Assembly (NCBI RefSeq): GCF_023055435.1
Contig: NW_025963890.1
Coordinates: forward strand, 50,778,001 to 50,842,000
Direction of reading: 5' to 3'
Source: Haliotis rufescens
Lineage: Eukaryota
Length of the DNA stretch: 64,000 nucleotides
In this document: in pieces, positions 3,607 through 61,330 of the stretch
How positions within the stretch are numbered: the stretch's first letter is position 1
Layout: each line of letters starts with the position of its first letter
Position numbers and translations under genes: made by a program
Notes under the pieces: generated by a model
The model's database searches: none
What the model was told of the DNA's origin: nothing
Seen by the model: the letters and a program-made list of their open reading frames with translations, nothing else

Positions 3607-4172
3607 TGGTCATGGTCAGGGCAACAGTTTGTTTATGACTGTTGATTATATTGATTATGCATGAGGAGCTCACACTGACACCGGCTTGGTTTTCAAATAG
3701 GTGGCAGTACAGTATTCTATTCACGTGTATAAATCTTTGCTCTATGAATAACACATTCTTACTTAAGCACAGTGTTGTGACGATTGAACGCGCCCTTTTC
3801 TCCAACATAACACAGTATAAACTGAGATTTTTCTTTTTTTCTTAGGGTTAAGTGATAAACAGTATATGTAAACGATTTGCTTTGAGCGTTTTTTTAATAA
3901 TATTTAACCAGTTACCATCTCCTGTAATCGTCTCTGGAGATTGTGATTATTAACACTGAAATATTTTGACTGTCACGAAGAAAATTAACAAAGGCTCCGC
4001 TCGGATTTCACAAAGACCGTATACATGTAGACGCGACAAAACAGTTTTCCAAGAGAGACGTGAATGTAGTATTGAGAATGGCAGATACTCCCCGAGAGAA
4101 TCCGATTGTGTGGCCCCTCAAAAGCCTGTTAACCAAAACACTATTATGTTGCCGATCACTTGTGTCTGTATT

Positions 4173-4210
4173 CCATATGAGGGATACATTGACGACTTGG
4201 AGGTATAAAA
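4173..4210 (+). promoter_or_regulatory. Actin A core promoter: CArG-like box CCATATGAGG plus TATAAAA
   Basis: CArG-like box 4173-4182 (one mismatch to CC(A/T)6GG), TATA 4204-4210, about 80 nt upstream of the ATG; same arrangement at paralogs. Confidence 0.7.
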
Positions 4211-4285
4211 ATCCACCAGTCCTGACTGGTGCTATCAGCTTTAAAGCCCACAGAAGTGAAACACATTTTATCCATTTCTGCCAAA

Positions 4286-4411
4286 ATGTGTGACGACGAT
4301 GTTGCTGCGATGGTTATCGACAACGGCTCCGGCATGTGCAAGGCCGGGTTCGCCGGTGACGACGCCCCCAGAGCTGTCTTCCCCTCTATCGTTGGCCACC
4401 CAACACATCGG
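4286..4411 (+). CDS. act: Actin A (divergent), coding exon 1
   Basis: [42 protein letters not shown] followed by donor GTAAGT at 4412. Confidence 0.9.
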
Positions 4412-6938: not shown

Positions 6939-7099
6939 TATATTTTATTGAAAATAATTGTGAAATTCTGGTTCCAAAATGATGGTTGCGTTAATGTGAT
7001 GATGTAACTTATATTCACTTTCACACACAATTTTCTTGAAATTCTTGCAGTTACCAAGACAGAGACAATGAGTAAGTTTCACAAAAAAAAATGGAAAGG

Positions 7100-11415: not shown

Positions 11416-12982
11416 CACGTTAGAGTGAATGAGTGCAACATGGAGACGTTATGCAACCCGTTAGGGGAGTTAGTGCAACACGTTAGGGCAGTTAGTGCAA
11501 CACGTTAGGGGAGTTAGTGCAACATGTTAGGAGAGTTAGTGCAACATGTTAGTGGAGGTAGGGCAACATGTTAGGGGAGTTAGTGCAACACGTTAGGGGA
11601 GGTAGTGCAACATGTTAGTGGAGGTAGTGCAACACGTTAGGGGAGTTAGTGCTACATGTTAGGGGAGTTAGTGCAACACGTTAGGAGAGTTAGTGGAACA
11701 TGTTAGGGGAGTTAGTGCAACATGTTAGGGGAGTTAGTGCAGCATGTTAGGGGAGTTAGTGCAACACGTTAGGGGAGTTAGTGCAACACGTTAGGGGAGT
11801 TAGTGCAACACGTTAGGGGAGTTAGTCCAACATGTTAGGGGAGTTAGTGCAACACGTTAGGGGAGTTAGTGCAACACGTTAGGGGAGTAAGTGCAACATG
11901 TTAGGGGAGTTAGTGCAACATGTTAGGGGAGTTAGTGCAACACGTTAGGGGAGTAAGTGCAACATGTTAGGGGAGTTAGTGTAACACGTTAGTTGAGTTA
12001 GTGCAACATGTTAGGGGAGTTAGTGCAACACGTAAGGAGAGTTAGTGCAACATGTTAGGGGAGTAAGTGCAACACGTTAGGAGAGTTAGTGCAACATGTT
12101 AGGGGAGTTAGTGCAACATGTTAGGGGAGTTAGTGCAACATGTAAGGGGAGTTAGTGCAACATGTTAGGGGAGTTAGTGCAACATGTTAGGAGAGTTAGT
12201 GCAACATGTTAGGGGAGTTAGTGCAACATGTTAGGAGAGTTAGTGCAACATGTTAGGGGAGTTAGTGCAACATGTAAGGGGAGTTAGTGCAACATGTTAG
12301 GGGAGTTAGTGCAACATGTAAGGGGAGTTAGTGCAACATGTTAGGGGAGTTAGTGCAACACGTTAGGAGAGTTAGTACAACACGTTAGGGGAGGTAGTGC
12401 AACGCGTTAGGAGAGTAAGTGCAACACGTTAGGGGAGTTAGTGCAACATGTTAGGAGAGTTAGTGCAACGTGTTAGGATAGTAAGTGCAACACGTTGTGG
12501 GAGTTAGTGCAACACGTTAGTGGAGGTAGTGCAACATGTTAGGGGAGTTAGTGCAACATGTTAGGGGAGTTAGTACAACATGTTAAGGGAGTTAGTGCAA
12601 CACGTTAGGAGAGTTAGTGCAACATGTTAGGGGAGTTAGTACAACATGTTAGGGGAGTTAGGGCAACACGTTAGGGGAGTTAGTGCAACGTGTTAGGGGA
12701 GTTAGTGCAACATGTTAGGGGAGTTAGTGCAACACGTTAGGGGAGGTAGTGCAACATGTTAGGGGAGTTAGTGGAACATGTTAGGGGAGGTAGTGCAACA
12801 TGTTAGGGGAGTTAGTGCAACACGTTAGGGGAGTTAGTGCAACACGTTAGGGGAGTTAGTGCAACATGTTATAGGACTTAGTGCAACATTGTAAAGGAGT
12901 TAGTGCAACATGGTAAAGGAGTTAGTGCAACATGGTAAAGGAGTTAGTGCAACATGTTAGAGGAGTAAGTGCAACATGTTAA
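11416..12982. repeat. 22-bp tandem satellite array 2
   Basis: Same monomer as array 1; ends about 60 nt before the ATG of gene B. Confidence 0.97.
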
Positions 12983-13043
12983 GGCATGTTATGTGCCACA
13001 TACTAGTATACGGTTTGTCAATATTTTTTTGTTTTTCAGGACG

Positions 13044-13166
13044 ATGGCTGAATTATCTTCCCCTGTTGTCATGGACAACGGTTCGAGCACGAGCAGGGCG
13101 GGGTTTGCAGGAGCCTCCCAGCCGTCATGTGTCTTCCCGTCCATTGTCGGCAGGCCCAGGGGACAG
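13044..13166 (+). CDS. Actin-like gene B, coding exon 1 (highly divergent)
   Basis: [41 protein letters not shown]; acceptor tttttcag 4 nt before the ATG; GT at 13167 at the conserved 41/42 position (weak donor gtctaa). Confidence 0.8.
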
Positions 13167-14565
13167 GTCTAAAACCAACAAATATATTCTTGTATTTGTA
13201 CATTTGTACGCGCGGTAGGACAGGACACCCGGTGTCGTCATTGATTTTCAGTGATCCATTCGTGTAGTTATCACCGTTATTTTGGCAATGGAATATGTTT
13301 TTTCGGACAATCGAGACCCGTGTGTTGTTTTACGCCACAGTCGGCCATGTTCCAGCTGTATCGAGTGTGGACCAGGAAAATCTTATTTAGAATTTCCACA
13401 AGGCACCAGTAATGACAAAACTATACATGTGAACTGTTAAATAACTATAAGGGTCCTTACTTGAACAGAAGAAAAGTTTTGGTAGTGACTGGGTGAGTTT
13501 GTAACGCTGCACCATACAATGAAATATTGCGGTCCCATGTCATATTAGTCCCTTATCACATTGATCTGCAGCACGGAAACATTATCGTCAAATACAGTCA
13601 TTGTTGTAAAAAAATGATTAACGTAATCACAACGAGGACACCGCGGGTGTCATGGGTCAGGATATCCTGTACTTCCGGTAGTATTTGACACGTTGGAAGG
13701 TCAAGGTCATGTGTTTTGTCCATAGAGAATTCGAAAGTTATAATTATGGCAGTATGTTGTGGAAGTAGAGACAAAATGTTATTTATATTATTCATGTGTT
13801 TTACCCAGAAAGTTGTTTTGTTATTAGCTGAGTTTTTTTATGAATATGAAATCACTTTCTCGCTTTTGTTTACACGGCAGTAGAGTCCAGTCAAAAAAAT
13901 AAGAATCTCATTGGCAACCATGAACTTTCGGCAAGGTCACAATCTGTCAGGGAAATTTTGCTCATCCCCTCCATCAATTGGTCAAATTGTACTTACATAC
14001 AGAGTATTTGATTTTCTGCGAAAACGTAAGCTGTAACTTTGATCAAACAACAGTTCAGCACGTCTCCTATGACCCTCTTTGAACTTTTCAGTGAAAGAAC
14101 ATGCTCGATTGTACCTAAAAAGTTATGAAATGTAGACACCGAAAGTTGATTCAGCCGGAATTTTCGACAAAAAGGGAAAGTTGGATGTCATCCCTCTTGT
14201 CATACAGTCTTGTGGATATTTTTAGTTGTCTATACTCTGATACCTTTTGCATGATACAAATGAGGCAGTGTATTAGTCTGTTATATCCAGCTCAGTAGGG
14301 TAAATCAGTGGAAGGGAGTTGACATTTTGACCATTTTGAACCACAATGAATGCATGTTTTGAAGAGACGAGTAAAGATTGGACTGTGATTTCATGACAAA
14401 GCGAATGATGCTTAGACCTTGCCCTGGTGAATATGTTAAATTCTGATAAATTGTTGCTAACTGTTACATGTCGTCTCATGCCTAGGTCGTATATAACTGT
14501 ATACACATTTTAGTCGTGACATAATTATATTTACTGCCAGTATCATGATATCTTCATCATATGAA

Positions 14566-14725
14566 GACCCGTGAAGATTCCGGGGTAGAATAGGTCTTCA
14601 GCAACCCATGCTTGCCGTAAAAGGTGACTATGCTTGTCGTAAAAGGCGACTTACAGGATCGGGTGGTCAGGCTCGCTGAATATTGCTTAGTGCGGCGTTA
14701 ATCAACAAAGCAACCAACCAACCAA
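14566..14725 (+). mobile_element. S1 element, internally deleted
   Basis: gacccgtgaagattccggggtagaataggtcttcagc head joined directly to the aatattgcttagtgcggcgtt tail. Confidence 0.8.
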
Positions 14726-14759
14726 TCATCATATGAAATACAGACAATCTTCCTTCCAG

Positions 14760-15761
14760 GGCGTGATGGTCGGTATGGGACAGAAGGACAGCTACGTCGG
14801 TGACGAGGCTCAGTACAAGAAAGGTATCCTCACCCTCAAGTACCCCATCGAGCACGGTATCGTCACCAACTGGGACGACATGGAGAAGATCTGGCATCAC
14901 ACCTTCTACAACGAGCTCCGTGTTGATCCAGAGGAGCACCCCGTCCTCCTGACTGAGGCTCCCATGAACCCCAAGGCCAACCGTGAAAAGATGACCCAGA
15001 TCATGTTCGAGACCTTCAACACTCCCGCAATGTCTTTGGCCATCCAGGCTGTTCTGTCCCTGCATTCCTCTGGCCACAAGACGGGTATTGTTCTGGATTC
15101 CGGTGATGGTACAACACATGTTATTCCCATATATGAAGGATACTATTTGCCACACGCTGTTTGTAAGACGATAATATCGGGACGAGATATAACAGATCAC
15201 ATGCTTAAACTGCTCAACGACCGTGGATGCAACTTCACCACCCGTGCAGAGTATGCCATCGTCAGAGATATCAAAGAGACGCTCTGCTACGTGGCCTATG
15301 ACTACAAACACGAGCTGAATACGATGACCAAGTCTACCATAAACAAAACCTATATACAACCAGATGGGACGTTCACCACAGTTGGTGACGAACGCTTCAA
15401 GTGCCCAGAGGTGATTTTTAATCCTCTATTGATGGGCGTGGAAATGTCCGGGATACAGGATATTTTGTCAAGGTCGTTACAGATGTGTGACAGCTCTATC
15501 CATGGTCAGCTGTATGGCAACATAGCTTTGTGTGGAGGGTCGACACTTTTCCCAGGATTCTCTGACCGCCTTCGGAAAGAGATAGAAAATGTAGCACCTG
15601 CTGGAACTACCGTCAACGTGAGAGCCCCACCCCATGGACTCATGTCAGCGTGGGTGGGGGGCTCGATGAAGGCCGCCCTACCCTCCTTCATGGATGCTGT
15701 AATGACGAAGGATATGTACGATGAATCTGGACCATCTCTAGTCCATCGATGTTGTTTTTGA
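14760..15761 (+). CDS. Actin-like gene B (374 aa total), coding exon 2
   Basis: Acceptor ccttccag at 14759; uninterrupted ORF; H73, Q137, DSGDG and H161 retained; first ~90 codons conventional, remainder strongly diverged; ends HRCCF*. Confidence 0.88.
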
Positions 15762-16274
15762 TCATGTTTTGACTTTCTTTACAACTACGTAGAAAGTTGA
15801 ATTGTTTTGTTATTTCATACATATATTGTATACCTAATATGTAAAATATGTGTATATAGTGAGATATCATCATTGTTTTCGGTGGGGCACTGGTGTCCGT
15901 AATACATCCCTCAGACGTGTCAGTACTTTGATTGTGGGTTCAAAGGGAGGAGTGTTTGATCACACACCGGTCCCTTGATGCCCGTTGACTGACTTGATGA
16001 CTTTCCTCGTTGCTTAGATTATTTTTTTGAAATTTCGATCTCTTGAGAAACTTGAGAAAATGATTGGAAGTAACGATAAATTCGAGAAAATAATCGAAAT
16101 TACGAGAACATAATCGAAATAATGAGAGAAAATTCAATTACAAAATTGATATAACGAGGAAGTGACACCATTAGGTTTTCGTACAAAACGTCAAAGCCAG
16201 AGAATAATTGGTCCTGACTACTAGTATTAATGACAAGGCTCAGGCCATTTGACAGTTATAGCAAATTTGAATGC

Positions 16275-17036
16275 CAGATTATGTTCGAGACCTTCAACTC
16301 TCCACCTTTGTATGTGGCCATCCAGGCTAGTCTGTCTCTGTACGCTTCTGGTCCTACGACGGGCATTGCTTTTGATTTTGGTGATGGTTTCACCCGCACT
16401 ATGTCCATCTACGGTTTACACCCTTCCCACGCCATAGCGACACTGGATCTCGCTGGGCATCAACTGACAGAATACTTCATGAAGATCCTCACCCAGCGTG
16501 GTTCATCCTTCACCACCACTGCCAAGAGAGAAATTGCCAGGGACATCAAGGAAACACTTGCCCATGTGGCACTTGACATCGAACGGGGGATGGCTACTGT
16601 TGCGACTTCTTCCTCCGTGGAAAAGAGCTACGAGCTTCTCGACGATCATACCAGCACAATTGGTAACGAGAGGTTCCGTTGTCCAGAGGCTCTCTGCCAG
16701 CCATCCATTTTGGGCATGGAATCTGCTGGTGTCCACGAAACATCATATGGTTCCATCATGAAGTGTTATGTTGATATTCGTAAAGACCTGTACGCCAACA
16801 CTGTTCTCTCAGGAGGTACCACCATGTTCCCCCGTATCGCCGACAGAATGCAGAAGGAGATCACAGCCCTTGCTCGAGCAACAATGAAGATCGAGGTCAT
16901 TGCTCCTCCAGAGAGAAAATACTCCGTCTGGATCGGTGGCTCCAACCTTGCCTTGATGTCCACCTTCCAGCAGATGTGGATCAGCAAGCAGGAGTATGAT
17001 TCCGGCCGGTTCATTGCTCACAGAAAGTGTTTTTAG
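16275..17036 (+). pseudogene. act: Actin C, 5'-truncated (starts at Q121)
   Basis: Intron-like sequence (compare 7537-7575) fused directly to cagattatgttcgagacc; exon 1 and ~80 codons of exon 2 missing; many substitutions, frame still open. Confidence 0.85.
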
Positions 17037-18371
17037 GGACTGACGTTGCATACGATGAGGACATTTTGGCGAATTCTTTTCATCATTGATAAGACCACTA
17101 TTAAACATTGTTCTTCTGATCGTTTGTTCCAATGATGATTTATGTTCCTTTTTTTTGGATACATTTATGCAGCTTTTCTGGTTGTTTTAGTAGGATAAGT
17201 AACTTTGATTGCTATTTTGTTTTACATTTTAGCTGTTTATCTCTTGTCACAAGAGAGCGTATATATTCATCATCCCTTCCTTTGACATCCATATTGTGGC
17301 AAAGTAGGTACTTGATTATTAAAATATCAAAATATCCACCTCAATGTGTGTTTGTTAATATTCGAAAGAAAACCCCGATATACATGTACATAAACAAAAC
17401 TTAATGCATACATATTCAGATGAATCATATGAGAATATAAAGATGTTTTCAGGTGAACAGCTGACTTGCCTTTGCATGTGTTTATGACGGGTGCCACCGG
17501 TGGGGCAGGATACGCTCACCTTTTCGCGAACACCAGGTATCATCACTATTTGATAGTGATTCATAAACACATGCTCATGATATAGTCGGAATCGTACAAT
17601 CGACTCTGCTTTATGCAGAGATTTCTATTGGATGTGGAAAGGGTTTTGTCGCTTTACTTATTATTGTCAACGCATTCACATATACACCACATCCTGTTTG
17701 GGAGTGAAGCTTATGGTTATTGATCTGGTACAGAGATTATATCTCAATTATCGATACAACACTACACATTTACACCTTCGGTATGTTACCAACATGATAC
17801 CTTACACTGATCGCTGCATACCCGTTCAATCAATCCACTTGTATACGTGGTATTTGTGGCGTCAACTCCGGCAACAGACTAGTTGATTACTAGTATTACT
17901 GAAACAGGTATCAAAGTTCCTTTAACCCGGTTGTAGTGATTCATATTACTAGCCAATATCGTCGGAAAACGACGTCAAGCAATCAAAGTAACCTGATGAC
18001 CCGATTCAATTTAGTCGTCTCCAACAACAAGTAATACAATAATTGGGACCCACGAAACCCACAAGCATAAACATGATGCTGTTAGCGAATCTGGGATTCT
18101 GAGCGAATCCTTGCACGGATAAGGGGCGCACTCTGCACAGCGAAACACGCGTCGTCATAGACCGCGGGGATACCAATGTCAAAAGGAATTGTCCACAAAT
18201 GTATGGAAACTATACAGTCTGTACAGTGATAGTCTCCCTGGCACAACGACAGCCGACTGTGTAACCGCGGGTGTATTATCCCTGACTGTCGGTCAGTGTA
18301 AACAGTAAACAATAAGTGTCAGGATAACATTATATCTCCTACGCTCATGCAGCTTCCTTTAAGTACGCCCT

Positions 18372-18720
18372 GGGCCCCGTTCCACAAAGCGATCGTAACT
18401 ACAATCAATCTTAGAGACTTACGTCGATTTTAAAATCGTCTTAGCTAAGGTTTACACCCGTTCCACAAAACGATCTGAGGGTGATTGTAACTTTACAAGT
18501 AGCCGATCTTAACAAAGATTGGAATCTTCAGCCACGAAGATACAAACGTTTCCCTTAGAGTGGCCTCCCTTGGTCATGTTTAGCAGACGACGCATTTCCA
18601 TGCACACCTTAATAAAAGTCGCCATCTTTGTTGTTATGGTACAAAATTGAAGATTGATTTTAGCAATCCTAAGTTGGTCCGAGGTGTCAGGGTTGTCTAA
18701 GTGTGAAGATCGCATAAGAT
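18372..18720. mobile_element. PIF/Harbinger-like element end
   Basis: Begins gggccccgttccacaaagcgatc, same terminus as the MITE at 63723; occupies the place where paralogous DNA carries the satellite block; right boundary approximate. Confidence 0.5.
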
Positions 18721-19070
18721 CTCATGGTCTTTGAGGCCTTAGTTTAGGAAGATGTCACACAACTATAAATTGTTAAAACCCAATTTAAAGATATTTGAAA
18801 CGACCGCAAATCCTGGTCAATACTAAAGGCACAACTCTAAATTTTCTCCACTAATGGGTCATACGTTAACGTTTGTGCTCTGGTTGGATTGTACAAAGAT
18901 GGTACACGTGAAGACACGTCGCCAGGCCGTTTTCCAATAGATACATGCGAGGCATGTTTAATGTTTCACAATACATTGTACTCCTCTTTCCCGAGAATGT
19001 CTGATTGTGTACAACTAAAGCATGTTTAACAAAACACTAACATGTTGCCGATCTGTTGTATGTCTGTGTG

Positions 19071-19108
19071 CCATATAAGGGGATGCACTGACCAGATTGA
19101 GGTATATA
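19071..19108 (+). promoter_or_regulatory. Orphaned actin promoter: perfect CArG CCATATAAGG plus interrupted TATA
   Basis: 18720-19108 matches 54600-54983 upstream of actin H. Confidence 0.75.
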
Positions 19109-20134
19109 GCCTGCAACCTCGGGGTATCACGGGACTTGTGATTACGCTGAACGGAACAAAATGCACTCACTAACATTTATGATTATTCGTGTTCTCTGTA
19201 TCAGATATCATTCATGTTATCTAACAATGCATATTTTACTGATAAAAGTTCATTATTTACATTAGTAGCTCCGAGTAAAAGCCGGGCCTCGCGCTCTGTT
19301 TGACAAGGGAGAGAAATCCATCGTATCGCGGTACAGAGAAAAGTTGTGTATGGAGGTCCGAATTGGACAAAAAGAGGACATAATTCTACCAACCACTTAG
19401 TAGTTAGTATAATCATGCCAGACATCAGTGATTTGTCCAGACATGTGCAAAGACAGCACAAGTAAAATTCTAAATGTGTTATCAGTAATAGGTTTTCAAT
19501 GCATATTTACCGAAAAGTCTGAGAAAAATATTTAAAAAACCAACAAAATATCAGAAATGATTTTCTAAGATTGTTTTAAAAAAAAATTGGATGACAATAA
19601 TTTGTCCCAAAATTGAAAAATGTTAAAAATCAACAATAAATATATAAAAAGCACTCCTAGTATATTATGCCCAAAGTATGTATTTATCTTTTGACTTCTA
19701 GTGAAAAACGTATTTCTAAGTTTGGCATTATGGCTCTTATGATCTCCCAATAGATTCTGGGCAAAGAGCGGGAAAAAATGTGCGGACTACGTAACTTCCG
19801 TTACCTTATTAGTCGCCATGAATATGCAGATGATCTAGTTCAGGTCGATAGAGAAAGTTTACTTGGGGAACTGCGGGTTATATCGTTGGTCATTAATAAA
19901 TGGGGGTAGGGCAATATTAAAAAAAGATGCCAGAAGTAAGTATCAACACATTAATAACTCCTCACTTACAGCAGACGGAACATTCCGAGGAAATTGAAAT
20001 TGTTTACGAAGTGAGCACTTCCTGGTTACTGATTTGCATTAATAGACAGCCGCTAAGAGGCGTGTCCCGCGTGAACTACCGGAAATCACAAATGCCGCGA
20101 TACGATGAATGGACCATGGACCATGGGGTCCGAG
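19109..20134. mobile_element. 1026-bp unclassified insertion inside the TATA box
   Basis: Empty site gaggtatataaatccacc at 54974; here gaggtatata|X|tataaatccacc, i.e. TATA duplicated; no obvious TIR or coding capacity. Confidence 0.8.
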
Positions 20135-20212
20135 TATAAATCCACCCGTTCAGACTACCACTATCAGCGTTACAGCCCTCAGTAGTGAAACGTCTTCTAC
20201 CTTTCTGCCAAA

Positions 20213-20248
20213 ATGTGTGACGAAGATATCGCTGCGTTGGTTGTGGAC
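20213..20248 (+). pseudogene. act: Actin D stub: first 12 codons ([12 protein letters not shown])
   Basis: 5'UTR and codons match actin H (55058), then the sequence switches to the upstream region of actin A (compare 3671). Confidence 0.85.
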
Positions 20249-20601
20249 ACAGTGACACCGGCTGGGTTTTCAAATAGGTGGCAGTACAGTTTTCTATTCA
20301 CGTGTATAAATCTTTGCTATATGAATAACATATTCTTATTGAACAAGAAATACTTAAGCACTGTTTTGTGACGAGATTTTTCTATTTTATTAGGGTTAAA
20401 TGATAAACAACATATGTAAACGATTTGCTTTGAGCGTTTTTTTAATAAAATTTAACCAGTGACCATCTCCTGTAATCGTATCTGGTGATTGTGATTATTA
20501 ACACTGAAATAGTGTTGACTGTCACGAAGAAACTTAACCAAGGCTCCGCTCGGATTTCACAAAGACCGTATACATGTAGACGCGACACTTGTGTCTGTTT
20601 T

Positions 20602-20639
20602 CCATGTAAGGGATACATTGATCACTTAGAGGTATAAAA
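20602..20639 (+). promoter_or_regulatory. Actin E core promoter: CArG-like CCATGTAAGG plus TATAAAA
   Basis: Homologous to 4173-4210, same spacing to the ATG. Confidence 0.7.
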
Positions 20640-20714
20640 ATCCACCAGTCCAGACTGGTACTATCAGCGTTACACCCCACAGAAGTGAAACACATTTTAT
20701 ACATTTCTGCAAAA

Positions 20715-20840
20715 ATGTGCGACGACGATGTTGCTGCGTTGGTTATCGACAACGGCTCCGGCATGTGCAAGGCCGGGTTCGCCGGTGACGACGCTCCCAG
20801 AACTGTCTTCCCCTCCATCGTCGGCCGCCCAAGACATCAG
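20715..20840 (+). CDS. act: Actin E, coding exon 1
   Basis: [42 protein letters not shown], donor GTAATT at 20841. Confidence 0.93.
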
Positions 20841-21756
20841 GTAATTATACTTGATCTTTGTGAAGGTTCACGGACCCGTTGGCGCTCCAAGTAAGAAATC
20901 CTCCAGCTTTTTAGATATCCGGTTTACGAGTCATTTTTATAATGAAATGTCCTTTGTGTAAATGTAGACAGATACTGTCAGAAATTGTCTTTCAGATTAA
21001 CGAGGGTTCACTGTATAAGATTGTTTCTTGGTATAATAAGTTTCACAGAGCAAGCGCCTCCAACTAGCTCTCACCAAGCAGTTTCCGCATCACTCCGGTG
21101 CCTCAGTATGTATCAGGTAATGAAGGTCGCTCTTTCCAGTGGCAGTATTGAAAATAACTCTAAGCTCTTCAGTTACCTATTCAAGTTGCGATTATCCGGC
21201 GATTATCGAACCATTTAGAATTCTACTATCCTTATGTATGTAAGTTCCGTGACTTTATATGAATGCCACTTCTTCAATAGAAGCGGTTTTACTTACTGGA
21301 GGTTACTGATGATGTTATGTGGGAGGAAAAAACCAGGTCGCCATAATGGGCCATGGTGGCTTCTGATTACAGAACCATCGTAAGCATTGACAAACAATGT
21401 TATAGAAAGACAAGTAACGACAAAACACTCAATATATCTCCAACGCATCGGCTCATGTTGTGTGAATATGATGCATCTGGTACAGATACTACGTTTAGTC
21501 ATCTCTGTTAAAGCAAAACAACGGTCGGTTTGGCAGTTCTAGCAAATTTCAGTGAAGTGGTGAAACGTCACTTTTGCATGCCAGCTCAAATATAATATAT
21601 GTACATCAAAACGTCAACACCAGACAATAACCAGTCTCGATTATCTGCTGAAACAGGTTTCCTTCATTTCAAATGAATGGATCACTGCAAAACAGTTATG
21701 ACGCCAGGTGTTCGCGAAAAGGGCAAACACGTTCTGCTGTGACTCACAGTTACCTG

Positions 21757-21962
21757 TACCTATCTATATCAATATCTATCTATATCTGTCTGTCTGTCTG
21801 TCTGTCTACCTATTTCTATTTCTCTATCTGTCTGTCTGTGTGTCTGTCTGTCAATATCTATCTATCTACTTCTATATCTATATCTGTCTGTCTGTCTGTA
21901 TCTATTTGTATATCTGTCTGTCTGTCTGTCTATCTATCTATATATCACTCTCTCTGTATATA
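21757..21962. repeat. Compound (TCTA)/(TCTG) microsatellite
   Basis: Visible tetranucleotide runs; paralogous to 56241-56568. Confidence 0.9.
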
Positions 21963-23487
21963 TAAACTCAACAACAAAAGTTCCCGTGACACCAATATTT
22001 TAGTTTATATTTCAAACAAGTAAAGTTTGTTTTTCAATTTTGTAGTACATGTATTGAATCAAGTCACAAAACGCACCTGCTACAGAAAATCATGCATACC
22101 ATGCAAAAGTTGACTTTTATGCAAGCCCCATGCATTTCACTACCCAAGAATGGGTATAAAAACATGTGCGTTAACGGGATTCCATATGCATTGTTTAGCA
22201 TCGTGCTGACAACCACTCAGAAAAACAACAAAATTACGCAATTATTCAACATTACGAAATGCCACGCCTGTCCGAAAATGAGCGTCTGTCAGCCATTGGT
22301 ATGCTTGAAGCAGGATCGAGTCAACGTGATGTTGCAAGACAATTAAACGTCCACAGAAAAACAATTTGGTGTCCACAGAAACACCATTTGGTGTTTATGG
22401 CAACGTTGGCAACAGGCGAATGCAGTCAGAGACCATCCTCAGAGTGGCAATAACCAATAATCGACAAGACAACTGGATTCAAACAACACACCTACGAAAT
22501 CGATTCCAGCCAGTAACAGTGACTGCGAGAAGCATCCCTGGCCTTCGAAGAATATCTTCACAAACCGTACGTCGCCGCCTCAGATGTGCAGGGACTGTCG
22601 CCAGAAGACCCACCAGACGTCCCATTTTGACAGGCAACCACCGTCAAGCACGTCTACAGTGGTGCAGACAGCTTCTACGCTGGACGGCCATGCAGTGGGG
22701 ACAAGTTCTATTCACTGACGAGTCTCGTTTTCACCTCAGCCACAGCGATGGACGGATTCGAGTGTACCGACGTCGAGGTGAACATTACGTCAATAATTGT
22801 GTCATGGAAGAAGATCGGTTCGGGGGCTCCCTCGTTATGGTATGGGGTGGGATTACAGCAAGACAGAGGACCCGTTTGCTAGTGGTAGAGGGAAATCTCA
22901 ATGGACAGCGCTACTGCGACGAGATCATCAGCCCTGTTGTTCTACCGTTTTTGCGTCGTCGTGGCCCAGGCATTACCTTTCAACATGACAACACCCGGCC
23001 TGATATTGCTCGACTTGTTCAGGATTCTCTTCAACAAAACAACGTGAATGTCATCCCCTGGCCGACTCGCGCCCCTGATCTCTCACCAATCGAGCACACA
23101 TGGGATGAGATGGATCGGCGCCTTCGACGTCAACCACGTGTTCCACAGACACTCCAGGAACTTCGAAACATGCTCCAGCAGATATGGACAGATGTCTCAC
23201 AGGACCTTGTGCGACGCCTGGTCCATTCCATGAGACGAAGATATGTTGCTTGCATCGCAACCAGAGGTGGACACACACGCTATTGTTTTGTAATTTGACA
23301 TTTTGGCATGTTCATGTTTTTTTTATATGAAATCATGCATTTTCTGAAGTCAGTATGGCAAATTAAACCATTTGAACACTTACAGGAGTCTTTTATCTGT
23401 TGCAAACCGACATTGTTTCAGATTGATAAAAAACATAACTTTGCATTAAATCTTATTCAATATCACAGGGACTTTTGTTGTTCAGCA
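21963..23487 (+). mobile_element. Tc1-family transposon, near full length, frameshifted DD34E transposase (22259-23298)
   Basis: TIRs at both ends; MPRLSENERLSAIGMLEAG start, FTDESRF, QHDN-34aa-E(PIEHTW); short tandem duplication near 22350-22392 breaks the frame; empty site in the actin H intron near 56560. Confidence 0.95.
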
Positions 23488-23637
23488 TATATATCTACTC
23501 TTCCTGTTTGATCGTGCACCAATCCCTGCACAACTGGTGTACTCCAACAGCTCACGTGACGAGCATGGATGATCGGGTTTCTCAACGTCAATTGAAAACT
23601 AACTTCTGTTATCCAGGCCATGACGCTCTGATTTCAT

Positions 23638-23813
23638 GGGGGCGGTCGGGTAGCCTAGTGGTTAAAGCGTTCGCTCGTCACGCCGAAGACCCGGGTTCGA
23701 TTCCCGACATGGGTACAATGTGTGAAGCCCATTTCTGGTGTCCCCTGCCGTGATATTGCTGGAATATTGCTAAAAGCGGCGTAAAACCATACTCACTCAC
23801 TCACTCACTCACT
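23638..23813 (+). mobile_element. tRNA-derived SINE (family S3, GTC-anticodon-like head)
   Basis: A box tagcctagtgg, B box ggttcgattcc, no acceptor-stem pairing, (ACTC)n tail; near-identical copies at 51960 and 61757. Confidence 0.9.
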
Positions 23814-24337
23814 AACAATCCCGGTGTTGTTGAGTTCGATGCGTATGTTATGCCCGGCATGAATTACTTGCAATGACTTTTGTGTTCGTATTTAGAGCAT
23901 GACGGCTACAAATACCTTACCCCGGTTTATGTGTTTACCATATTGTGCCCAAATATGGAAATGAAAAGATCTACTCTATTGTATACATGTAGAACACAGT
24001 TGTCACAGGGTTGTGTTTAAAAGGGTTTGACCAACGAACTAAATACAATCTGTGAAATGTTCTGAAAGGCAGTTTGTTCGTGCATTTTCGTGCATGAAAA
24101 CCGGTTTTCTTGTATATTAACCTGAATGAAGGTTGGGTAGGCGCGAGATAGCACTCCCGCTATAATAGGAGATCGCAATGTACAAAATATGTACTCCTAA
24201 TGGTTCAAGCGGTGGCTTGTCAAACGGAGAAACCCGGATCCCAACTGCTTGTTGTTTCTGTCCGCCGCCGTTTGAACACTGCTGAAACCGTCGGACAACC
24301 TTACTAACGCAATATTGTATGCTTTGTATGCCTGTGA

Positions 24338-25414
<1,077 letters not shown>

Positions 25415-25656
25415 GGACTGATGTTGCATACGATAGTATGTTAGCGAACATTTTTCGTCATTAATAAGACCACTATGAAGTATTGTTATTCTGATTGTTG
25501 TCCCAAATTGAAGATATGGAGGACGAACTGTTTTGTTTTTTGAAATGAGAAAGTAAATTGCATCAGGACTCCAGATAATGTTTTGAGACTTTGAATATTT
25601 ACTAAAATGTTGTTCATTCTCATTTGGTATTGACAGTTTTCTTTGGGTGTTCAATA

Positions 25657-27147
25657 TACACTGGCCAAAAAAAGAAACGCATAACAGAATAATCAGTGTT
25701 TCATTACATGTTTAATGAAATAGGATTACACAATAAATAATGAAGATACAACAACCAAATTTTACACAGGATGAGGCACATGTTTCTTACACTACAAACA
25801 GTCTTTTAATGTTTTGTGATGGCACTGTGCCAAAGTCAGTACCGGGTGTTACCACCACGAGCATCGATCACAGCTCTGCACCGCCTTGGCATGGACTGTA
25901 TGAGTGGAATCCTTCTTCACTCATCCATCAATGCATGGTTCAGCTGTTGAAGCGTCAGTGGTTGAGGCTGTCGGGTGTCGTACACGTCTGTCTAGCAGAT
26001 CCAACAAATGTTCAATGGTTTTTAGATCAGGCGATTTGGAGGGCCATGGCAGTACAGTAACATTGTTGTGGGCAAGATAATCCATGGTAACACGTGCAGT
26101 ATGCGGTCTTGCGTTGTCTTGCTGTATCTCTTCTGACGTCAATGGTGGGAATAAGGTGACGTTGAAGGATTTTATCACGGTAGCGTACAGCAGTTAAATT
26201 ACCCTGTACGTGCACCAGATCTGTCTACCATTCACGGATATGCTTGTCCACATCATGACACTTCCACCGCCGTATCGGCCGACTTCATGAATACAGTGTC
26301 GAGTGTAGCGTTCATATCTCCGTCTTTAGACACGCATCCTACCATCATGGCGATACAGCATGAACCGCGACTCATCACTGAACCATATCCTTCTCCAGTG
26401 CACTAGGGTCCATGGTCGAACATTTCTGCTCCATTGCAGACGTGCACGACGATGATGTTGCCGCAGAACGGGCTCTGTATATGGTCTCATAGGCCGTATC
26501 CCATGCTGTCTTAGACGATTTCTGATGGTTTGCGCTGAGACTACGAAGACCAGGAACATTGTTAGCTGTGTTTGCTGCACTGATTGTCCGGTTGCGAAGA
26601 TGCAACACCCGGATGAAGCGGTCCTGCGCCGCAGTTGTGACCCTGGGTCTTCCACTTCTCGGTCGATCTCTTGTAGAGTTGTTGAGTCTGTAGCGCTGCC
26701 ACAGACGAGAAATGGTACTCTGCCTCACGTTAAAGTGCCTGGCTACTGATGTCTGACTTCCTCCAGCTTCCAGACGTCCAATGGCTCTGTTTCTACAGTC
26801 TTCATTTAGTCTTGGCATCATGAGAGTCACGCATACAGAACATCGGAGAGTGATTCTCAGCAGGACTGCCAAATTTTTATACCCATCGGTATAAAGGTTA
26901 AGTAGCCATATTTGCACGTGCAGCATGCTTACAGCTTTTTCTCCATGCAATTCCTCCCAGTTAGGTTTCAAGATGCTGTATTTTGGCGACAAGTCACTAA
27001 ATGTTGTGTTCGGGTGCAATAAACTAGTGTAAGGTCAATATTCACAGTTAGCAATGGCATTTATATTGAGTTCACGCCTTCAACTTTAATAACAGTCAAG
27101 TTTGATAAACAGATTTCAGTTATGCGTTTCTTTTTTTGTCCAGTATA
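25657..27147 (-). mobile_element. Tc1-family transposon, degenerate
   Basis: TIRs cactggccaaaaaaagaaacgcataac / gttatgcgtttctttttttgtccagta, TA flanks; fragments MPRLNEDCRNRAIG, FSDESRF, QQDNARPH...PDLKTIEH in different frames. Confidence 0.93.
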
Positions 27148-27689
27148 TACTACTCCCTTGGGTCAATCCCACTGGTTATTTTTCAAAGGTACAAAAAGTT
27201 TTGTAACGGATGGTTGTTGTACATTATGCACTACAATATAGTTCGTGTGTGCCTTTATTCGATAAGTAAATATATTTGTGTTAGGAAATACAGTTAATTA
27301 AACTGAAACGGCTACATTGGACAATTATGGTCAATTGTGTTTTTGATTTTCATGCGTATTGGTACGCAAGCAACTCAATTTTTTTTGGTTAATGCTAATT
27401 TATGTATGCAAATAAAACTACTGAAGTTACATGTACATGAATAAAAAGCTTATTTAAGAGAATATATACTTATCAGGACTGAGTTCTAAAAATTGGTGCC
27501 ATCAGTTATTTATTCCAGACAAAGGGCCTTTTGTGTGTATTACTTTCAAATTTGATAAGACTTTATCATGAAATAAAGCCACCCTAGTGCCTATATCTCT
27601 TTACAGGACTCTTTTTTATAGTTAACAGTTACTTTCTTATTATTCACTACCTTATGAACAAAGAGAATTCTAATGTACACCATGCTAGG

Positions 27690-27935
27690 GTAGGTGGCAC
27701 GGGAGGTCCAGTCGTCTATGTGCAGAGTTGCGTCCCTTGGACACGCCAGATTCCTATAACCGTGGGTTCGAATCCCTGTTCGATCGATTACGTTTCTAGG
27801 TTTGTCAGAACCATACCCGAGTTGTAAACCTCTAAGCCTTGTATCATTTTGAGCTTTACTCCCACAATAAGCTGACACGCCGTGATATGACTGGAATATT
27901 GTTTCAAGCTGTGTTAAACCCACTCACTCACTCAT
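27690..27935 (+). mobile_element. S2 SINE, degenerate
   Basis: gtgcagagttgcgtcccttgg core, B box gggttcgaatccc, actcactcactc tail. Confidence 0.7.
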
Positions 27936-46996: not shown

Positions 46997-48016
<1,020 letters not shown>

Positions 48017-54600: not shown

Positions 54601-54945
54601 TTGGCCTTAATTTAGGAAGACGTGTCATTTCACACAACTATAGATTGTTAAAACCCAATTTAAAGATATTTGAAACGACCGCAAATCCTGGTCAATACTA
54701 AAGGCACAACCCTAAATTTTCTTCACTAAGGGGTCATACGCTACCTGTTGTGCTGTGGTTGGATTGCACAAAGACCGTACACGTAAAGACACGTCGCCAG
54801 GCCGTTTTCCAATATAGACACGCGAGGCATGTTTAATGTTTCACAATACATTGTTCTCGTCTTTCCCGAGAATGTCTGATTGTGTACAACTAAAACCTGT
54901 TTAACAAAACACTAACCTGTAGCCGATCTGTTGTATGTCTGTATG

Positions 54946-54985
54946 CCATATAAGGGGACGCATTGACCATATCGAGGTATATAAA
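54946..54985 (+). promoter_or_regulatory. Actin H core promoter: perfect CArG CCATATAAGG plus TATATAAA
   Basis: CArG 54946-54955, TATA 54978-54985, ATG at 55058; CArG-then-TATA is the known SRF-dependent actin promoter layout. Confidence 0.8.
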
Positions 54986-55057
54986 TCCACCTGTCCAGAC
55001 TACCGCTATCAGCGTTACAGCTCTCAGTAGTGAAACGTCTTCTACCTTTCTGCCAAA

Positions 55058-55183
55058 ATGTGTGACGAAGATATCGCTGCGTTGGTTATCGACAACGGCT
55101 CCGGCATGTGTAAGGCCGGGTTCGCCGGTGACGACGCCCCCAGAGCCGTCTTCCCCTCCATCGTCGGTCGTCCCCGTCATCAG
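55058..55183 (+). CDS. act: Actin H, coding exon 1
   Basis: [42 protein letters not shown], donor GTAATT at 55184. Confidence 0.96.
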
Positions 55184-56068
55184 GTAATTATACTTATCTG
55201 TGTGAAGGTTCGTGAACCCGGTGGGGTTCCAAGTATAAAATCCTCCAGTTTTTTAGATATCCGGGTAACGAGTCATTTTTATAGAGAGATGTCCTTTGTG
55301 TAAATGTAGACTGATAATTGTCTTTCAGATTAACAAGGGTTCACTGTATAAGATTGTTTCTTGGTATAATAAGTTTCACAGAGCAAGCGCCTTCAACTAG
55401 CTCTCACCAAGCAGTTTCCGCATCACTCCGGTGCCTCAGTATGTATCAGGTAATGCAGGTCGCTCTTTCCAGTGGCAGTATTGAAAATAACTCTAAGCTC
55501 TTCAGTTACCTATTCAAGTTGCGATTATCCTGCGATTATCGAACCATTTAGAATTCGACTATCCTTATGTATGTAAGTTCCGTGACTTTATATGAATGCC
55601 ACTTCTTCAATAGAAGCGGTTTTACTTACTGGAGGTTACTGATGATGTTATGTGGGAGGAAAAAAACAGGACGCCATAATGGGCCATGGTGGTTTCTGAT
55701 TACAGAACCATCGTAAGCATTGACAAACAATGTTATAGAAAGACAAGTAACGACAAAACACTCAATATATCTCCAAAGCATCGGCTCATGTTGTGTGAAT
55801 ATGATGCATCTGATGCAGATACTACGTTTATTCATCTCTGTTAAAGCAAAGTAACGGTCGGTTTGGCAGTTCTAGCAAATTTCAATGAAGTGGTGGAACA
55901 TCACTTTTGCATGCCAGCTCAAATATAATATATGTACATCAAAACGTCAACGCCAGACAATAACCAGTCTCGATTATCTGCTGAAACAGGTTTCCTTCAT
56001 TTCAAATGAATGGATCACTACAAAACAGTTATGACGCCAGGTGTTCGCGACAAGGGCAAGCACGTTCT

Positions 56069-56240
56069 NNNNNNNNNNNNNNNNNNNNNNNNNNNNNNNN
56101 NNNNNNNNNNNNNNNNNNNNNNNNNNNNNNNNNNNNNNNNNNNNNNNNNNNNNNNNNNNNNNNNNNNNNNNNNNNNNNNNNNNNNNNNNNNNNNNNNNNN
56201 NNNNNNNNNNNNNNNNNNNNNNNNNNNNNNNNNNNNNNNN
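56069..56240. other. Assembly gap (172 N) next to a (TCTA)/(TCTG) microsatellite (56241-56568)
   Basis: N run seen directly. Confidence 0.98.
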
Positions 56241-57259
56241 ATCTATTCCCATCTATTTCTATATGTCTGTCTGTCTGGGTGTGTCTGTCTGTCTGTATCT
56301 ATCTATCTATTTCTATATCTATATCTGCCTGTCTGTCTATCTTTATCTATTTCTTTATGTCTGTCTGTATCTATTTCTATATCTGTCTGTCTATCTATAT
56401 CTATTTCTATATGTCTGTCTGTCTGTGTGTCTGTCTGTGTGTGTCTGTCTGTATCTATCTATCTATTTCTATATCTGTCTGTCTGTCTATCTATATCTAT
56501 TTCTATATGTCTGTCTGTCTGTCTATATCTATTTCTATATCTGTCTGTCTGTCTATCTATATATATCTACTCTTCCTGTTTGATCGTGCACCAATCCCTG
56601 CACAAGTGTACACCAACAGCTCACGTGACGAGCATGGGTGATCAGGTTTCTCAACGTCAATTGAAAACTAACTTCTGTTATTCAGGGCATGACGCTCTGA
56701 TTTCATGAAGGCTTTTGAATCAAAATGAATTAAGAGTTCGATGCGTTTGTTATGTCCCGCATGAATTACTTGCAATGACTTTTGTGTTTGTATTTAGAAC
56801 ATGACGGCTACAAATACCTTCGCCCGGTTTATGTGTTTACAATATTGTGCCCAAATATGGAAATGAAAAGATCTACTCTATTGTATACATGTAAAAACAC
56901 AGTTGTCACAAGGTTGTGGTTAAACGGGTTTTACAAGCGAACTAAATACAATCTGTGAAATGTTCTGAAATGAGGTTTTTCGTGCATTGTTAAAGCATGA
57001 AAACCGGTTTTCTTGTATATTAAACTTAATAAAGGTGGGGTAGGCGTGAGATAGCACTCCCACTATGATAGGAGATCGCAATGTACAAAATATGTACTCC
57101 TAATGGTTCAAGCGGTGGCTTGTCAAGCGGAGGAACCCGGATCCAAACTGCTTGTTGTTTCTGTCCGCCGCCGTTTGAACACTGCTGAAACCGTCGGACA
57201 ACCTTACTTACGCAATATTGTATGCTTTGTATGCCGATCGTAACAAGTAACATACATGA

Positions 57260-58291
<1,032 letters not shown>

Positions 58292-58510
58292 GGACTGACG
58301 TTGGACACGATAGGGACATTTTAGCGAACATTTTTCGTCATTAACAAGACCACTATGAAGTATTTTTATTCTGATTGTTGTCCCAAATTGAAGATACCGA
58401 GGACGAACTGTTTTGTTTTTTGAAATGAAAATTGCACCAGGACTCCAGAGATTTTGAATATTTACTTAATGTTGTTCATTCTCATTGGGTATTGACAGTT
58501 TTCTTTGGGT

Positions 58511-58742
58511 ATGTGCAGCATGCTTACAGCTTTTTCTCCATGCAATTCCTCCCAGTTTGGTTTCAAGATGCTCTATTTTCGCGACAAGTCACCAAATTTT
58601 GTGTTTGGGTGCAATAAACTAGTGTAAGGTCAATATTCACAGTTAGCAATGACATTTATATTGAGTTCAAGCCTTCAACTTTAATAACAGTCAAGTTTGA
58701 AAAACAGTTTTCAGCTATGCGTTTCTTTTTTTGACCAGTATA
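58511..58742 (-). mobile_element. One-ended remnant of the Tc1 copy at 25657-27147
   Basis: Matches 26918-27147 with the same downstream flank (tatactactcccttgggtc). Confidence 0.88.
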
Positions 58743-60789
58743 TACTACTCCCTTGGGTCCAGCCCATTGGTTAGTTTTCAAAGTTACAAAAAGTTTTGTA
58801 ACGGATGGTTGTTGTACATTATGCACTACAATATAGTTCGTGTGTGCCTTTATTAGATTAGTTAATACATTTGTGTTAGGGAATACAGTTAGCCAAACTG
58901 AAACGGCTACATTGGATAATTATGGTTAATTGTGTTTTTGATTTTCATGCGCATTGGTACGTAAGCAACTCAAAATTTAGTGGTTAATGCTGATTTATGT
59001 ATGCAAATATGCATCGTATCTGGAGCTCTGATTGCTCTTAATATTCAAAATATGATTACTATTTTACATTTGATCTGTTTATCTCTTCTTAGATGAGAGC
59101 GTTATATATCCTGATCCCTCTTTATCCCCCGCAGCGAAGTGGAGCGGGGGAGGATATGGGAGCGTAGTTCGTCCGTCCTTCCATTTCTCACCGACTATTT
59201 AAGTTCGAGAAATTAACTTTATAACACTGATGTTACTGGTCGTGATCCTAAATGAATTCGAAAATTTGTATCTTAAATTCATTTTGTACAGATTTATGAC
59301 CCTTGCTCCATGCTTTTCAACTGGTTAAATGGGGACATGTTTTATCAGAAACTACTGAAGTTTCATGTACATGAATAAAAAGCTTATCCAAGAGAATGTA
59401 TACTTATCAGGACTGAGTTCTAAAATTGGTGCCATGAATTATTTATTCCAGACAAGGGACCCTGTTCGATCGATTACGTGTGTAGGTTTGTCAGCATCAT
59501 ATCCGGGTGGTAAACCTCTAAGCCTTGTATCATTTTCAGCTTTACTCCAAAAAATAAGCTGACACGCCGTGATATGGCTGGAATATTGTTCAAAGCAGTG
59601 TTAAACCTACTTACCCACTTTTGAGCGTTCCTCTCACAATAAGCTGACACGCCGTGATATGACTAGAATATTGTTCAGAGCGGTGTTAAACCCACTCACT
59701 CACTCATGGCCGGGCAAAGTGATAACGCTGTTTTCTTGTTGACATCCACATTGTGGCGAAGTAGGTACTTGGTTATCTTATAAAAACAAACTTTTCGTCG
59801 TCATATTGTTGGTCACTTTAACAGTGACAGTACCGCTGGCACAACGATAGCAATGATATGTGAGATGCAGCGTGTCATATCATGAATACGGCATATCGCA
59901 TCATTCCGGAATTGATTGATATATTCATTATAAACATACTTTACGGGATAAGATGATGAAGAATGTATCCTTATTTCACAAAGCATCATCTAAGAAGTAC
60001 TGATGAAGTTACAACGACCCGTATCAATTTCAAGGCAGTTTCTCAGATTTGAGTGATTTATGAAAGAAACCCATAATATGTGTACATTACAACCAGATAT
60101 GCGTTTAGGAGATTCGGGGTTTTGCATTACCATCTGACCATCTGGGTCATTTGCTGCTGGGTGAAATAAGGCACATTTGGAACACGAGTGGTTCAGTGAT
60201 GGGCAGAACCGAGGCCCGAGAAGCTCCCTGGAGTCAACCCTACCGAGCTATGAACATTGTTTTGTGTTTTGCAAACTGAATAGCCAGTTTCAGAAACATA
60301 ATGATGAAATTGACTGTGTACAAGAGAAAAGCGAAAATCCACAACAATCTCAACGTTAATCTATCAAATGAGGAATCAATTATCACCCATATTACGTGAG
60401 TCTATGCAGTCAACTCGAAGTGAGATCCCCTGTTAATGTTGCATGGTGTTACGTACACACTCATCCCCGTCGATCAATGACATTTTACCCAGCATTCTCC
60501 AAGCCAGGAAATGCAGAGAGTTTGTAATGGATTTTTCAGAATGAATACTCCAAAATATTTCGTAATTGTAAGAAATTTTTCGAAATATAATTTGATGTGA
60601 TTGTTAAAAATGATTCAATGTCGTACCTTTAAAATGTTTCTGGATGACACACACTTGATAATAACAAAATATATGACGAACAAGCAGCTTTGAGGCACCG
60701 ATATGCAACAGCGGATAACTTGTTCCCACTAACTGCTTGTATTGAAACATATTTAAGTTCACGGAAAGGTAGATGATTCCTATTGCCTT

Positions 60790-61330
60790 TAAGGATTTAA
60801 AAAGACAGTATTTGATTCTGTAAATAGAAAGAAACTTATGTATGTTCTTCGAAAATGTTGTCTTCCTGTTTAAATGTTGAATATGATGAAGTCGATGTAT
60901 TCATCTGTTACAGAATGGGGACGGTGTGACGCTGGTTTTACTGAGTGTTTTGACTGACTTATTGGACTGAAACAAGGCTGTGTATTGAGGCCAATTGTAT
61001 TTACATCTTTTATTGATGAATTGGCTGCTGAAACTATTGACACATATCGAGGAGTACAAGTATTCCCTTATCAAGATGAATAGTTTGTGTTTATGTTTGC
61101 TGATGGGTATGTCTATTTATGATAGAATAAGTGAGCTGTAAGAGAACTGAATATTCTAGATGATTATTGTTTCTGCATGGAAGTTAAATGTCAACCTACC
61201 GAAAACTAAATAATTATTTTTCGTGAAGGTGGAACTGTTAAACTGTTAGAAATGTTATAATCCTAATAAAGTTGTCGAAGATGTATCAGAATGTAAGTAC
61301 TTTGGATTATAGATGACTCCATCTTTAAAA
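60790..61330 (+). mobile_element. Degenerate LINE reverse-transcriptase fragment
   Basis: FDSVNR, GLKQGCVLRPIVFTSFIDEL, MFAD, LNVNLPKTK, KYFG motifs with frameshifts and stops. Confidence 0.8.

What the first reader, a model, noticed from the sequence alone, without database searches (positions are those of the whole stretch)
18720..20840. Promoter swap: insertion in the TATA box, then capture of a paralog promoter and exon 1
Seen: 18720-19108 and 20135-20248 are the actin H-type upstream region and first 12 codons, split by a 1026-bp insertion in the TATA box that moves the perfect CArG box 1 kb away. At codon 12 the sequence switches to the actin A-type upstream region (matches 3671-4285 apart from a ~120-bp deletion), with a new CArG/TATA and a DDDV-type exon 1. 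At the donor site it returns to the H-type intron. Inference: gene E is an H duplicate re-wired with an A-type promoter, possibly rescuing a damaged promoter. The order of events cannot be proven from one haplotype.
Basis: partly seen in the sequence, partly recalled or inferred. Interest (0 to 1): 0.7.

Follow-up and report, generated by a model that had tools for sequence, protein, structure and literature searches.

The report
Actin gene with borrowed paralog promoter
One actin gene in a tandem cluster carries the promoter and first exon of a neighbouring actin gene, pasted in behind the stump of its own, likely by an ordinary DNA-break repair; a related species appears to have the swap without the transposon in the old promoter, so the proposed 'rescue' is likely wrong.

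Summary
The anatomy is real. Gene E (intact, 376 aa) lies in a duplicate of gene H's block. A dispersed 1-kb non-coding element sits in the old TATA box, adding 1030 bp. After codon 12, about 600 bp of A-type upstream DNA, promoter and exon 1 follow; the intron is H-type again. Contigs from another individual span the swap junction and both element ends, and a second species spans the swap junction, so this is not an assembly artefact. The left joint has 6-of-7 microhomology and the right joint is homologous. That fits a break repaired by copying from an A-lineage paralog (inferred). The rescue story is weakened. A third species shows the E-type stump without the element, and its contig overlaps a swap-spanning contig. 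The captured CArG is also imperfect. Against my order: the element copy looks as old as the swap, and the link is a 30-nt overlap, not one read. E has a second A-type tract in exon 2, so exchange between paralogs is recurrent here. Expression was not shown. It is a new case of a known kind (globin-like chimeric paralogs). Interest 0.27.

The parts
18735..19108 (+). H-type upstream region of the original promoter; perfect CArG CCATATAAGG at 19071-19080
   Evidence: besides itself the own-genome search finds only H (91%) and one 77% fragment, 3 matches in all
19109..20134 (.). Non-coding dispersed mobile element inserted in the TATATA of the old TATA box (1026 bp + TATA duplication, or 1028 bp + TA duplication); superfamily not assigned
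   Evidence: 40 other matches at 88-94% among 40 scored of 499 candidates; TA on the left in 10 of 10 copies and TATA on the right in 9 of 10 as cut; 39 private substitutions of 1001 sites; both ends spanned in run X1
20135..20249 (+). Stump of the H-type gene: regenerated TATAAAT, 5' UTR, ATG at 20213, codons 1-12; reads on into the captured DNA as a 52-codon frame that stops at 20369-20371
   Evidence: the 52-aa product has no Pfam hit
20243..20249 (+). Left, non-homologous junction: 7-nt overlap, 6 of 7 identical to the P/Q upstream sequence; in run X19 an H-type contig matches the stump to 20249 (1 difference in 62) and continues as intact actin
   Evidence: spanned by contigs in X1 (20178-20441, 0 differences), X12, X19 and, by inference from tables 3-4, X13
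20250..20585 (+). Captured distal upstream DNA of the A lineage (A 3673-4036), with a 42-bp deletion; a 120-bp deletion joins it to the core promoter
   Evidence: 19/321 = 5.9% from A; 10.6-12.2% from P and Q over 20250-20372; 23 of 23 informative sites group E with A
20586..20714 (+). Captured A/P/Q-type core promoter and 5' UTR: imperfect CArG 20602-20611, TATAAAA at 20633
   Evidence: 6.2% from Q, 8.7% from P, 10.1% from A, 22.8% from H; motifs
20715..20840 (+). A/P/Q-type coding exon 1 (MCDDDV..., 42 codons); holds the right, homologous junction
   Evidence: 6-9 differences from P, Q, A and 13 from H, of 126; Pfam Actin
20841..24409 (+). H-type intron (GT...AG) with inserted repeats
   Evidence: 3.4-5.8% from H in three aligned parts
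24410..25414 (+). Exon 2, open to the stop; mosaic: A-type alleles 24575-24858, H-type alleles 24919-25253
   Evidence: runs test p = 0.0002 after collapsing adjacent sites; Pfam Actin E = 3.5e-127
3666..4411 (+). Gene A upstream region and exon 1: closest surviving relative of the donor; still in place
54603..60790 (+). Gene H block: sister of the block that holds E
   Evidence: colinear matches to 18735-29927

Best explanation
Gene E is an intact actin in a duplicate of gene H's block whose promoter and exon 1 come from an A-lineage paralog, likely because a break in exon 1 was repaired by copying from that paralog. Shown: H-type flanks on both sides, about 600 bp of A-type DNA in between, a homologous right joint, a microhomology left joint, and the donor family still in place. 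Inferred: the downstream broken end invaded the paralog's exon 1, copied leftwards through its promoter and was joined to the stump at codon 12 (one-sided invasion or template switch). Inferred order: the swap came first, which made the old promoter useless for actin (it can give only a 52-codon frame); the mobile element later landed in its TATA box in one lineage, as decay rather than as the cause of a rescue. The event is one of at least two exchanges between E and A-type genes. E would be transcribed from the TATA at 20633 (untested).
For: Colinear H-type flanks 18735-29927 at 3.4-8.2% where measured. Captured distal DNA 5.9% from A, 23 of 23 informative sites. Microhomology 6 of 7. In X19 an H-type contig shares the stump up to 20249 and continues as intact actin, so codons 11-12 belong to the progenitor exon (tables 7, 8). 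Swap junction spanned in X1 (organism A), X12 and X19 (organism B) and X13 (organism C); the element ends are spanned only in X1 among the 4 runs laid. In X13 one 234-nt contig joins 19104 to 20135 without the element and has 0 differences over 20135-20249, so it carries the E allele at 6 of 6 sites that separate the stump from H. It is the only contig laid at 20207 in that run (depth 24.9), and a swap-spanning contig of like depth (29.2) begins at 20220. A second A-type tract lies in exon 2. ORF intact.
Against: The link in X13 between the element-free contig and the swap contig is a 30-nt overlap inferred from tables 3, 4 and 8; no single record spans both, and 1556 pieces were not shown. 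Organism B holds an intact H-type gene much like the stump, so the X13 contig could belong to such a gene. The element copy has 3.9% private substitutions against 0-1.2% for nine other copies, about as much as the swap itself (E and A each 6 of 237 private sites) and more than the roughly 3% pairwise distance to organism C would suggest; an early insertion with later loss is therefore possible. The X13 contig differs at 7 of 119 sites left of the insertion point and 0 of 115 right of it (p = 0.014), which a conversion that removed the element would also produce. The sequence cannot tell one-step repair from crossover plus deletion. E's 20 private exon-2 changes (12 non-synonymous, 8 synonymous) do not differ clearly from neutral (p = 0.08), so E may be drifting.
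Confidence: 0.6

Rival explanations
1. One reading: the element broke the H-type promoter, the A-type promoter was captured afterwards and kept because it restored expression; organism C later lost the element by conversion from an element-free H-type gene.
For: The element copy looks old (39/1001 private sites). The left/right asymmetry of the X13 contig fits a conversion tract. E keeps an open frame with dN/dS 0.13-0.26 against other actins. Promoter gain by conversion did raise HBD expression in mammals (PMC4041002, passages).
Against: It needs an extra exact removal in organism C that keeps E alleles from 20147 on. The insertion regenerates TATAAAT. The captured CArG is imperfect, and a 120-bp deletion removes conserved promoter DNA. 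Selection for rescue is not shown.
Confidence: 0.17
2. Two-step array rearrangement: an unequal crossover in exon 1 made an A-promoter/H-body gene behind a full H-type gene, and a later microhomology deletion removed everything from codon 12 of the upstream gene to about -470 of the chimera.
For: It gives the same final sequence. Unequal crossover is the documented route for globin chimeras. The captured segment has two further deletions, the 120-bp one with a 2-nt overlap, and the cluster shows many exchanges.
Against: It needs two events and an A-type copy downstream of an H-type copy, which the present order (P, Q, A, B, E, F, G, H) does not show. Left and right H-type flanks are of similar distance to H and colinear as one block.
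Confidence: 0.2
3. Assembly artefact joining reads of different actin paralogs.
For: Tandem paralogs at 90-95% identity are prone to mis-joins (general knowledge).
Against: Contigs of 4 of 4 runs laid cover the swap junction, X1 with 0 differences over 264 nt; X1 also spans both element ends. E has private alleles throughout, so it is not a patchwork of the present A and H.
Confidence: 0.02

Closest known systems
Chimeric HBB/HBD (anti-Lepore-type) globin genes of laurasiatherian mammals (PMC4041002; abstract and passages seen)
   Same: A tandem paralog gains the promoter and 5' coding part of a neighbour while keeping its own intron and 3' part; repeated inter-paralog exchange in one cluster.
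   Different: The routes described there are unequal crossover or conversion between homologous positions. Here the left joint is non-homologous, so the old promoter and 12 codons stay in front of the new promoter. An expression gain is shown for globins and is not shown here.
One-sided invasion / SDSA finished by end joining; FoSTeS/MMBIR template switching (term and mechanism in passages of PMC9299229 and PMC4888836; the 'one homologous end, one end-joined end' signature is recalled from Belmaaza and Chartrand 1994 and Puchta 1998, seen only as reference entries)
   Same: One homologous joint, one short-microhomology joint, donor unchanged, recipient flanks kept.
   Different: Those are laboratory or disease events; this is an old germline product shared by three species, and its mechanism can only be inferred.
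Chimeric and partial gene duplicates (review PMC3449122; passages seen)
   Same: A duplicate built from two donor genes; the review calls such duplicates common in animal genomes.
   Different: Both donors are near-identical actins, so the protein barely changes; the novelty would be regulatory.
Lineage-specific molluscan actin families (PMC5440852; passages seen)
   Same: Multiple, partly tandem actin genes most similar to paralogs in the same genome.
   Different: The passages seen describe no promoter exchange. That the host is a mollusc (abalone-like) is my recall from its repeats and actin N-termini; no call names it.

Membership tests
Actin (Pfam PF00022) | Profile match above the curated cut-off | tested here: met
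   exon 2: 424.8 bits; exon 1: 52.1 bits; cut-off 27
Actin (Pfam PF00022) | Full-length open frame with GT-AG intron | tested here: met
   376 aa, 24 differences from paralog J
Actin (Pfam PF00022) | Expressed, polymerising protein | not testable with these tools
Anti-Lepore-type chimeric paralog | 5' part from one paralog, 3' part from another | tested here: met
Anti-Lepore-type chimeric paralog | Exchange only at homologous positions, with no stump of the recipient's 5' end left | tested here: not met
   the old promoter and codons 1-12 remain; the left joint is non-homologous
Anti-Lepore-type chimeric paralog | Acquired promoter sets the expression of the chimera | not testable with these tools
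   no transcript data for E
One-sided invasion / template-switch repair product | One homologous junction | tested here: met
One-sided invasion / template-switch repair product | One non-homologous junction with microhomology | tested here: met
   6 of 7 nt at 20243-20249
One-sided invasion / template-switch repair product | Donor unchanged and both recipient flanks kept | tested here: met
   A, P and Q keep their promoters; H-type flanks on both sides
One-sided invasion / template-switch repair product | Arose in a single event | tested here: inconclusive
   crossover plus deletion gives the same sequence; ages overlap
Non-autonomous DNA transposon (MITE-like) | Many dispersed copies with fixed ends | tested here: met
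Non-autonomous DNA transposon (MITE-like) | Target-site duplication | tested here: met
   removing the element and one TA restores H's sequence exactly; an empty site is seen in X13
Non-autonomous DNA transposon (MITE-like) | Terminal inverted repeats | tested here: not met
   only a subterminal 20-nt pair at 85% (19124-19143 / 20084-20103); superfamily left unassigned
Non-autonomous DNA transposon (MITE-like) | No coding capacity | tested here: met
   longest stop-free stretch 98 codons in copy L007

The most novel reading that the evidence does not exclude
E is a natural tandem-promoter experiment. After the swap the old promoter stayed active, either firing a short transcript towards the captured promoter or lending its perfect CArG to a captured promoter whose own CArG had decayed. 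The later element insertion in one species then switched that off or pushed it 1 kb away, so sister species differ in actin E regulation by one insertion. Weak hints: the stump is identical over 115 nt between organisms A and C; an AATAAA at 20444, absent from A, lies between the two promoters; a low-depth contig across the junction is present in a run guessed to be RNA.
Probability: 0.1. Interest if true: 0.5.

Novelty: new member of a known kind. Interest (0 to 1): 0.27.

Why it matters
It is a clean, datable germline example of how a duplicated gene can take a sibling's promoter while keeping its own as a stump, with the repair signature still readable and with species that differ in the later insertion. 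It would let one test whether promoter capture changes a duplicate's expression. It does not reveal a new kind of system: promoter gain by exchange between tandem paralogs is documented in globins, and this cluster shows several such exchanges.

Tried and rejected
Rescue order: weakened by X13. Gene A as the exact donor: only the distal part is A-specific; the core promoter has 1 informative site. A closer copy of the element that would make the insertion look younger: best other match 96% over the first 222 bp among 40 scored of 429 candidates, so none was found. Naming the element: passages of the Crypton paper PMC3212892 gave nothing that assigns it. Expression: no RNA holder listed. X19 is only guessed to be RNA and has no cover at 18575-19099 or 20450-20740; this is no evidence, since contigs can be filtered out. 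The element's state in organism B is not shown (no joint or spanning piece listed for X12). Reads were laid only on 18500-20740, so the exon 1/intron joint and exon 2 were not checked with reads; the 120-bp deletion is not spanned by a listed piece. The promoter scan is for bacterial promoters and was uninformative. Searches used off-by-one exon limits and one search left minus-strand copies unflipped; correct them. Literature: six searches (listings only unless named elsewhere) showed no title or abstract on this locus, but the library lacks most subscription journals and the older abalone actin papers. Three look-ups of earlier findings returned nothing. No supplements were read.

Full report
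Setting. The window holds a tandem actin cluster that continues on both sides. With 100 kb of flanking DNA each way, E's exon 1 finds 10 other matches: P (-27164) and Q (-4017) before the window, A, F, G and H inside it, and J, K and two divergent copies after it (window coordinates). E encodes an intact 376-aa actin, 24 residues from J (Pfam). That the host is a mollusc, abalone-like, is my recall; no call names it.

Observation. 18735-19108 and 20135-20249 are H-type. 20250-20840 is A-type. The intron, 3' UTR and 3' flank to 29927 are H-type and colinear with 54603-60790. Distances to H are 8.2% upstream, 3.8% in the stump, 3.4-5.8% in the intron and 6.6-6.8% on the 3' side. The captured distal DNA is 5.9% from A, against 10.6-12.2% from P and Q over 20250-20372, and 23 of 23 informative sites group E with A. 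That split is unrooted and partly reflects P and Q being sisters, but the distances agree. The core promoter is 6.2% from Q, 10.1% from A and 22.8% from H, with no power to pick the donor. The captured piece has a 42-bp and a 120-bp deletion and keeps 14 bp that A later lost, so the donor was an earlier state of the A lineage.

The insertion. It is a dispersed repeat: 40 other matches at 88-94% among the 40 candidates scored of 499. Ends are fixed and sit at TA. There are no true terminal inverted repeats and no long frame. Taking out the element and one TA restores H's TATA box exactly. The insertion moves the perfect CArG (19071) 1030 bp away but leaves TATAAAT at 20135. The captured promoter's CArG is CCATGTAAGG, one mismatch from the consensus; Q and H have the perfect box.

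The junctions. The right joint is in register within or at the end of exon 1. The left joint is non-homologous: the stump's last 7 nt match the P/Q upstream sequence at 6 of 7 positions. In run X19 an H-type contig matches the stump to 20249 (1 difference in 62) and then continues as normal actin, so these bases also belong to the progenitor exon. One homologous end, one microhomology end, an intact donor and both recipient flanks kept is what repair by one-sided invasion or a template switch leaves (mechanism from passages; the signature is recalled). A crossover followed by a deletion gives the same sequence with more steps and cannot be excluded. A transcript from the old TATA would carry a 52-codon frame ending at 20371, so after the swap the old promoter cannot make actin.

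Independent data. One search listed 24 runs; 4 were laid on 18500-20740. X1 (organism A) has contigs across the swap junction (264 nt, 0 differences) and across both element ends. X1's study holds four different samples, which makes it unlikely to be the assembly's source, though that is not excluded. X12 and X19 (organism B) span the swap junction. X13 (organism C) has a 234-nt contig that skips the element and carries the E allele at 6 of 6 sites that separate the stump from H. It ends at 20249. Tables 3 and 4 imply a contig of 20220-20313 across the junction at similar depth (29.2 against 24.9), and no other contig is laid at 20207. Caveats: the link is a 30-nt overlap; B has an intact gene much like the stump; the C contig differs at 7 of 119 sites left of the insertion point and at 0 of 115 right of it (p = 0.014). 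The element copy has 39 of 1001 private substitutions against 0-12 for nine other copies, so it looks about as old as the swap (E and A each 6 of 237 private sites). I put swap-before-insertion at about 0.7.

Context. E's exon 2 has a second A-type tract: 13 A-type alleles at 24575-24858, then 10 H-type alleles at 24919-25253, then 2 A-type; runs test p = 0.0002 after collapsing neighbours. H and P also share alleles. Exchange between paralogs is therefore routine here, and the promoter swap needs no special cause. E evolves fast for an actin (exon 2 dN/dS 0.13-0.26 against 0.02 for J-K). Its private changes, 12 non-synonymous and 8 synonymous, are only marginally below neutral (p = 0.08). P is frameshifted and A and Q carry in-frame deletions, so the donor family may be decaying. 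Expression of E was not shown either way.

Comparison and verdict. It works like the chimeric HBB/HBD globins, in which a paralog gains its neighbour's promoter (PMC4041002, abstract and passages), but it fails one feature of that class: the recipient's old 5' end is still there. Chimeric duplicates are described as common (PMC3449122, passages), and tandem, genome-specific actin families are known in molluscs (PMC5440852, passages). Six paper searches showed nothing on this locus, within a library that lacks most subscription journals. Observation confirmed; interpretation partly supported; new member of a known kind; interest 0.27. The boldest reading left open, a working tandem promoter altered in one species by the insertion, has probability about 0.1.

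Noticed in passing
window 24575-24858: Second A-type tract inside exon 2 of gene E (A98N, Q122K, Y144H, T149V, L177T, M191I, K192R shared with A, P or Q).
   Followed up: yes
window 20444-20449: AATAAA between the stump and the captured promoter; A has AATAAT here. It could end transcripts from the old promoter, or be chance in AT-rich DNA.
   Followed up: partly
run X13, window 20442 to 18902: A contig of organism C joins A-type distal upstream DNA back to H-type proximal upstream DNA (depth 11.2): possibly another chimeric actin promoter.
   Followed up: no
window 1535-3626, 11415-13001, 53209-54600: The same 22-bp minisatellite array lies directly upstream of A, of the divergent gene B and of H. 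E's H-type and A-type upstream matches both begin within about 45 bp of where these arrays end.
   Followed up: no
window 13043-17132: Divergent actin-like gene B (start [13 protein letters not shown]..., read by eye), exon 2 split in two pieces at about 82% identity to the others.
   Followed up: no
L023-L025 (P at -27164, Q at -4017) and window 4286-8736 (A), 45686-48025 (G): Decay in the donor family: P frameshifts near codon 287; A and Q have in-frame 3-bp deletions; G shows no ATG at the usual place and stops two codons early.
   Followed up: partly
window 21960-23489, 5846-6943 and 25650-26990: Transposon-like inserts in the introns of E and A (87% alike, opposite strands) and 3' of E. 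They look Tc1/mariner-like by eye (recalled, not tested).
   Followed up: no
G000:C112:2377848-2537475: A second actin cluster on the same contig: 16 of the 31 matches lie there.
   Followed up: no
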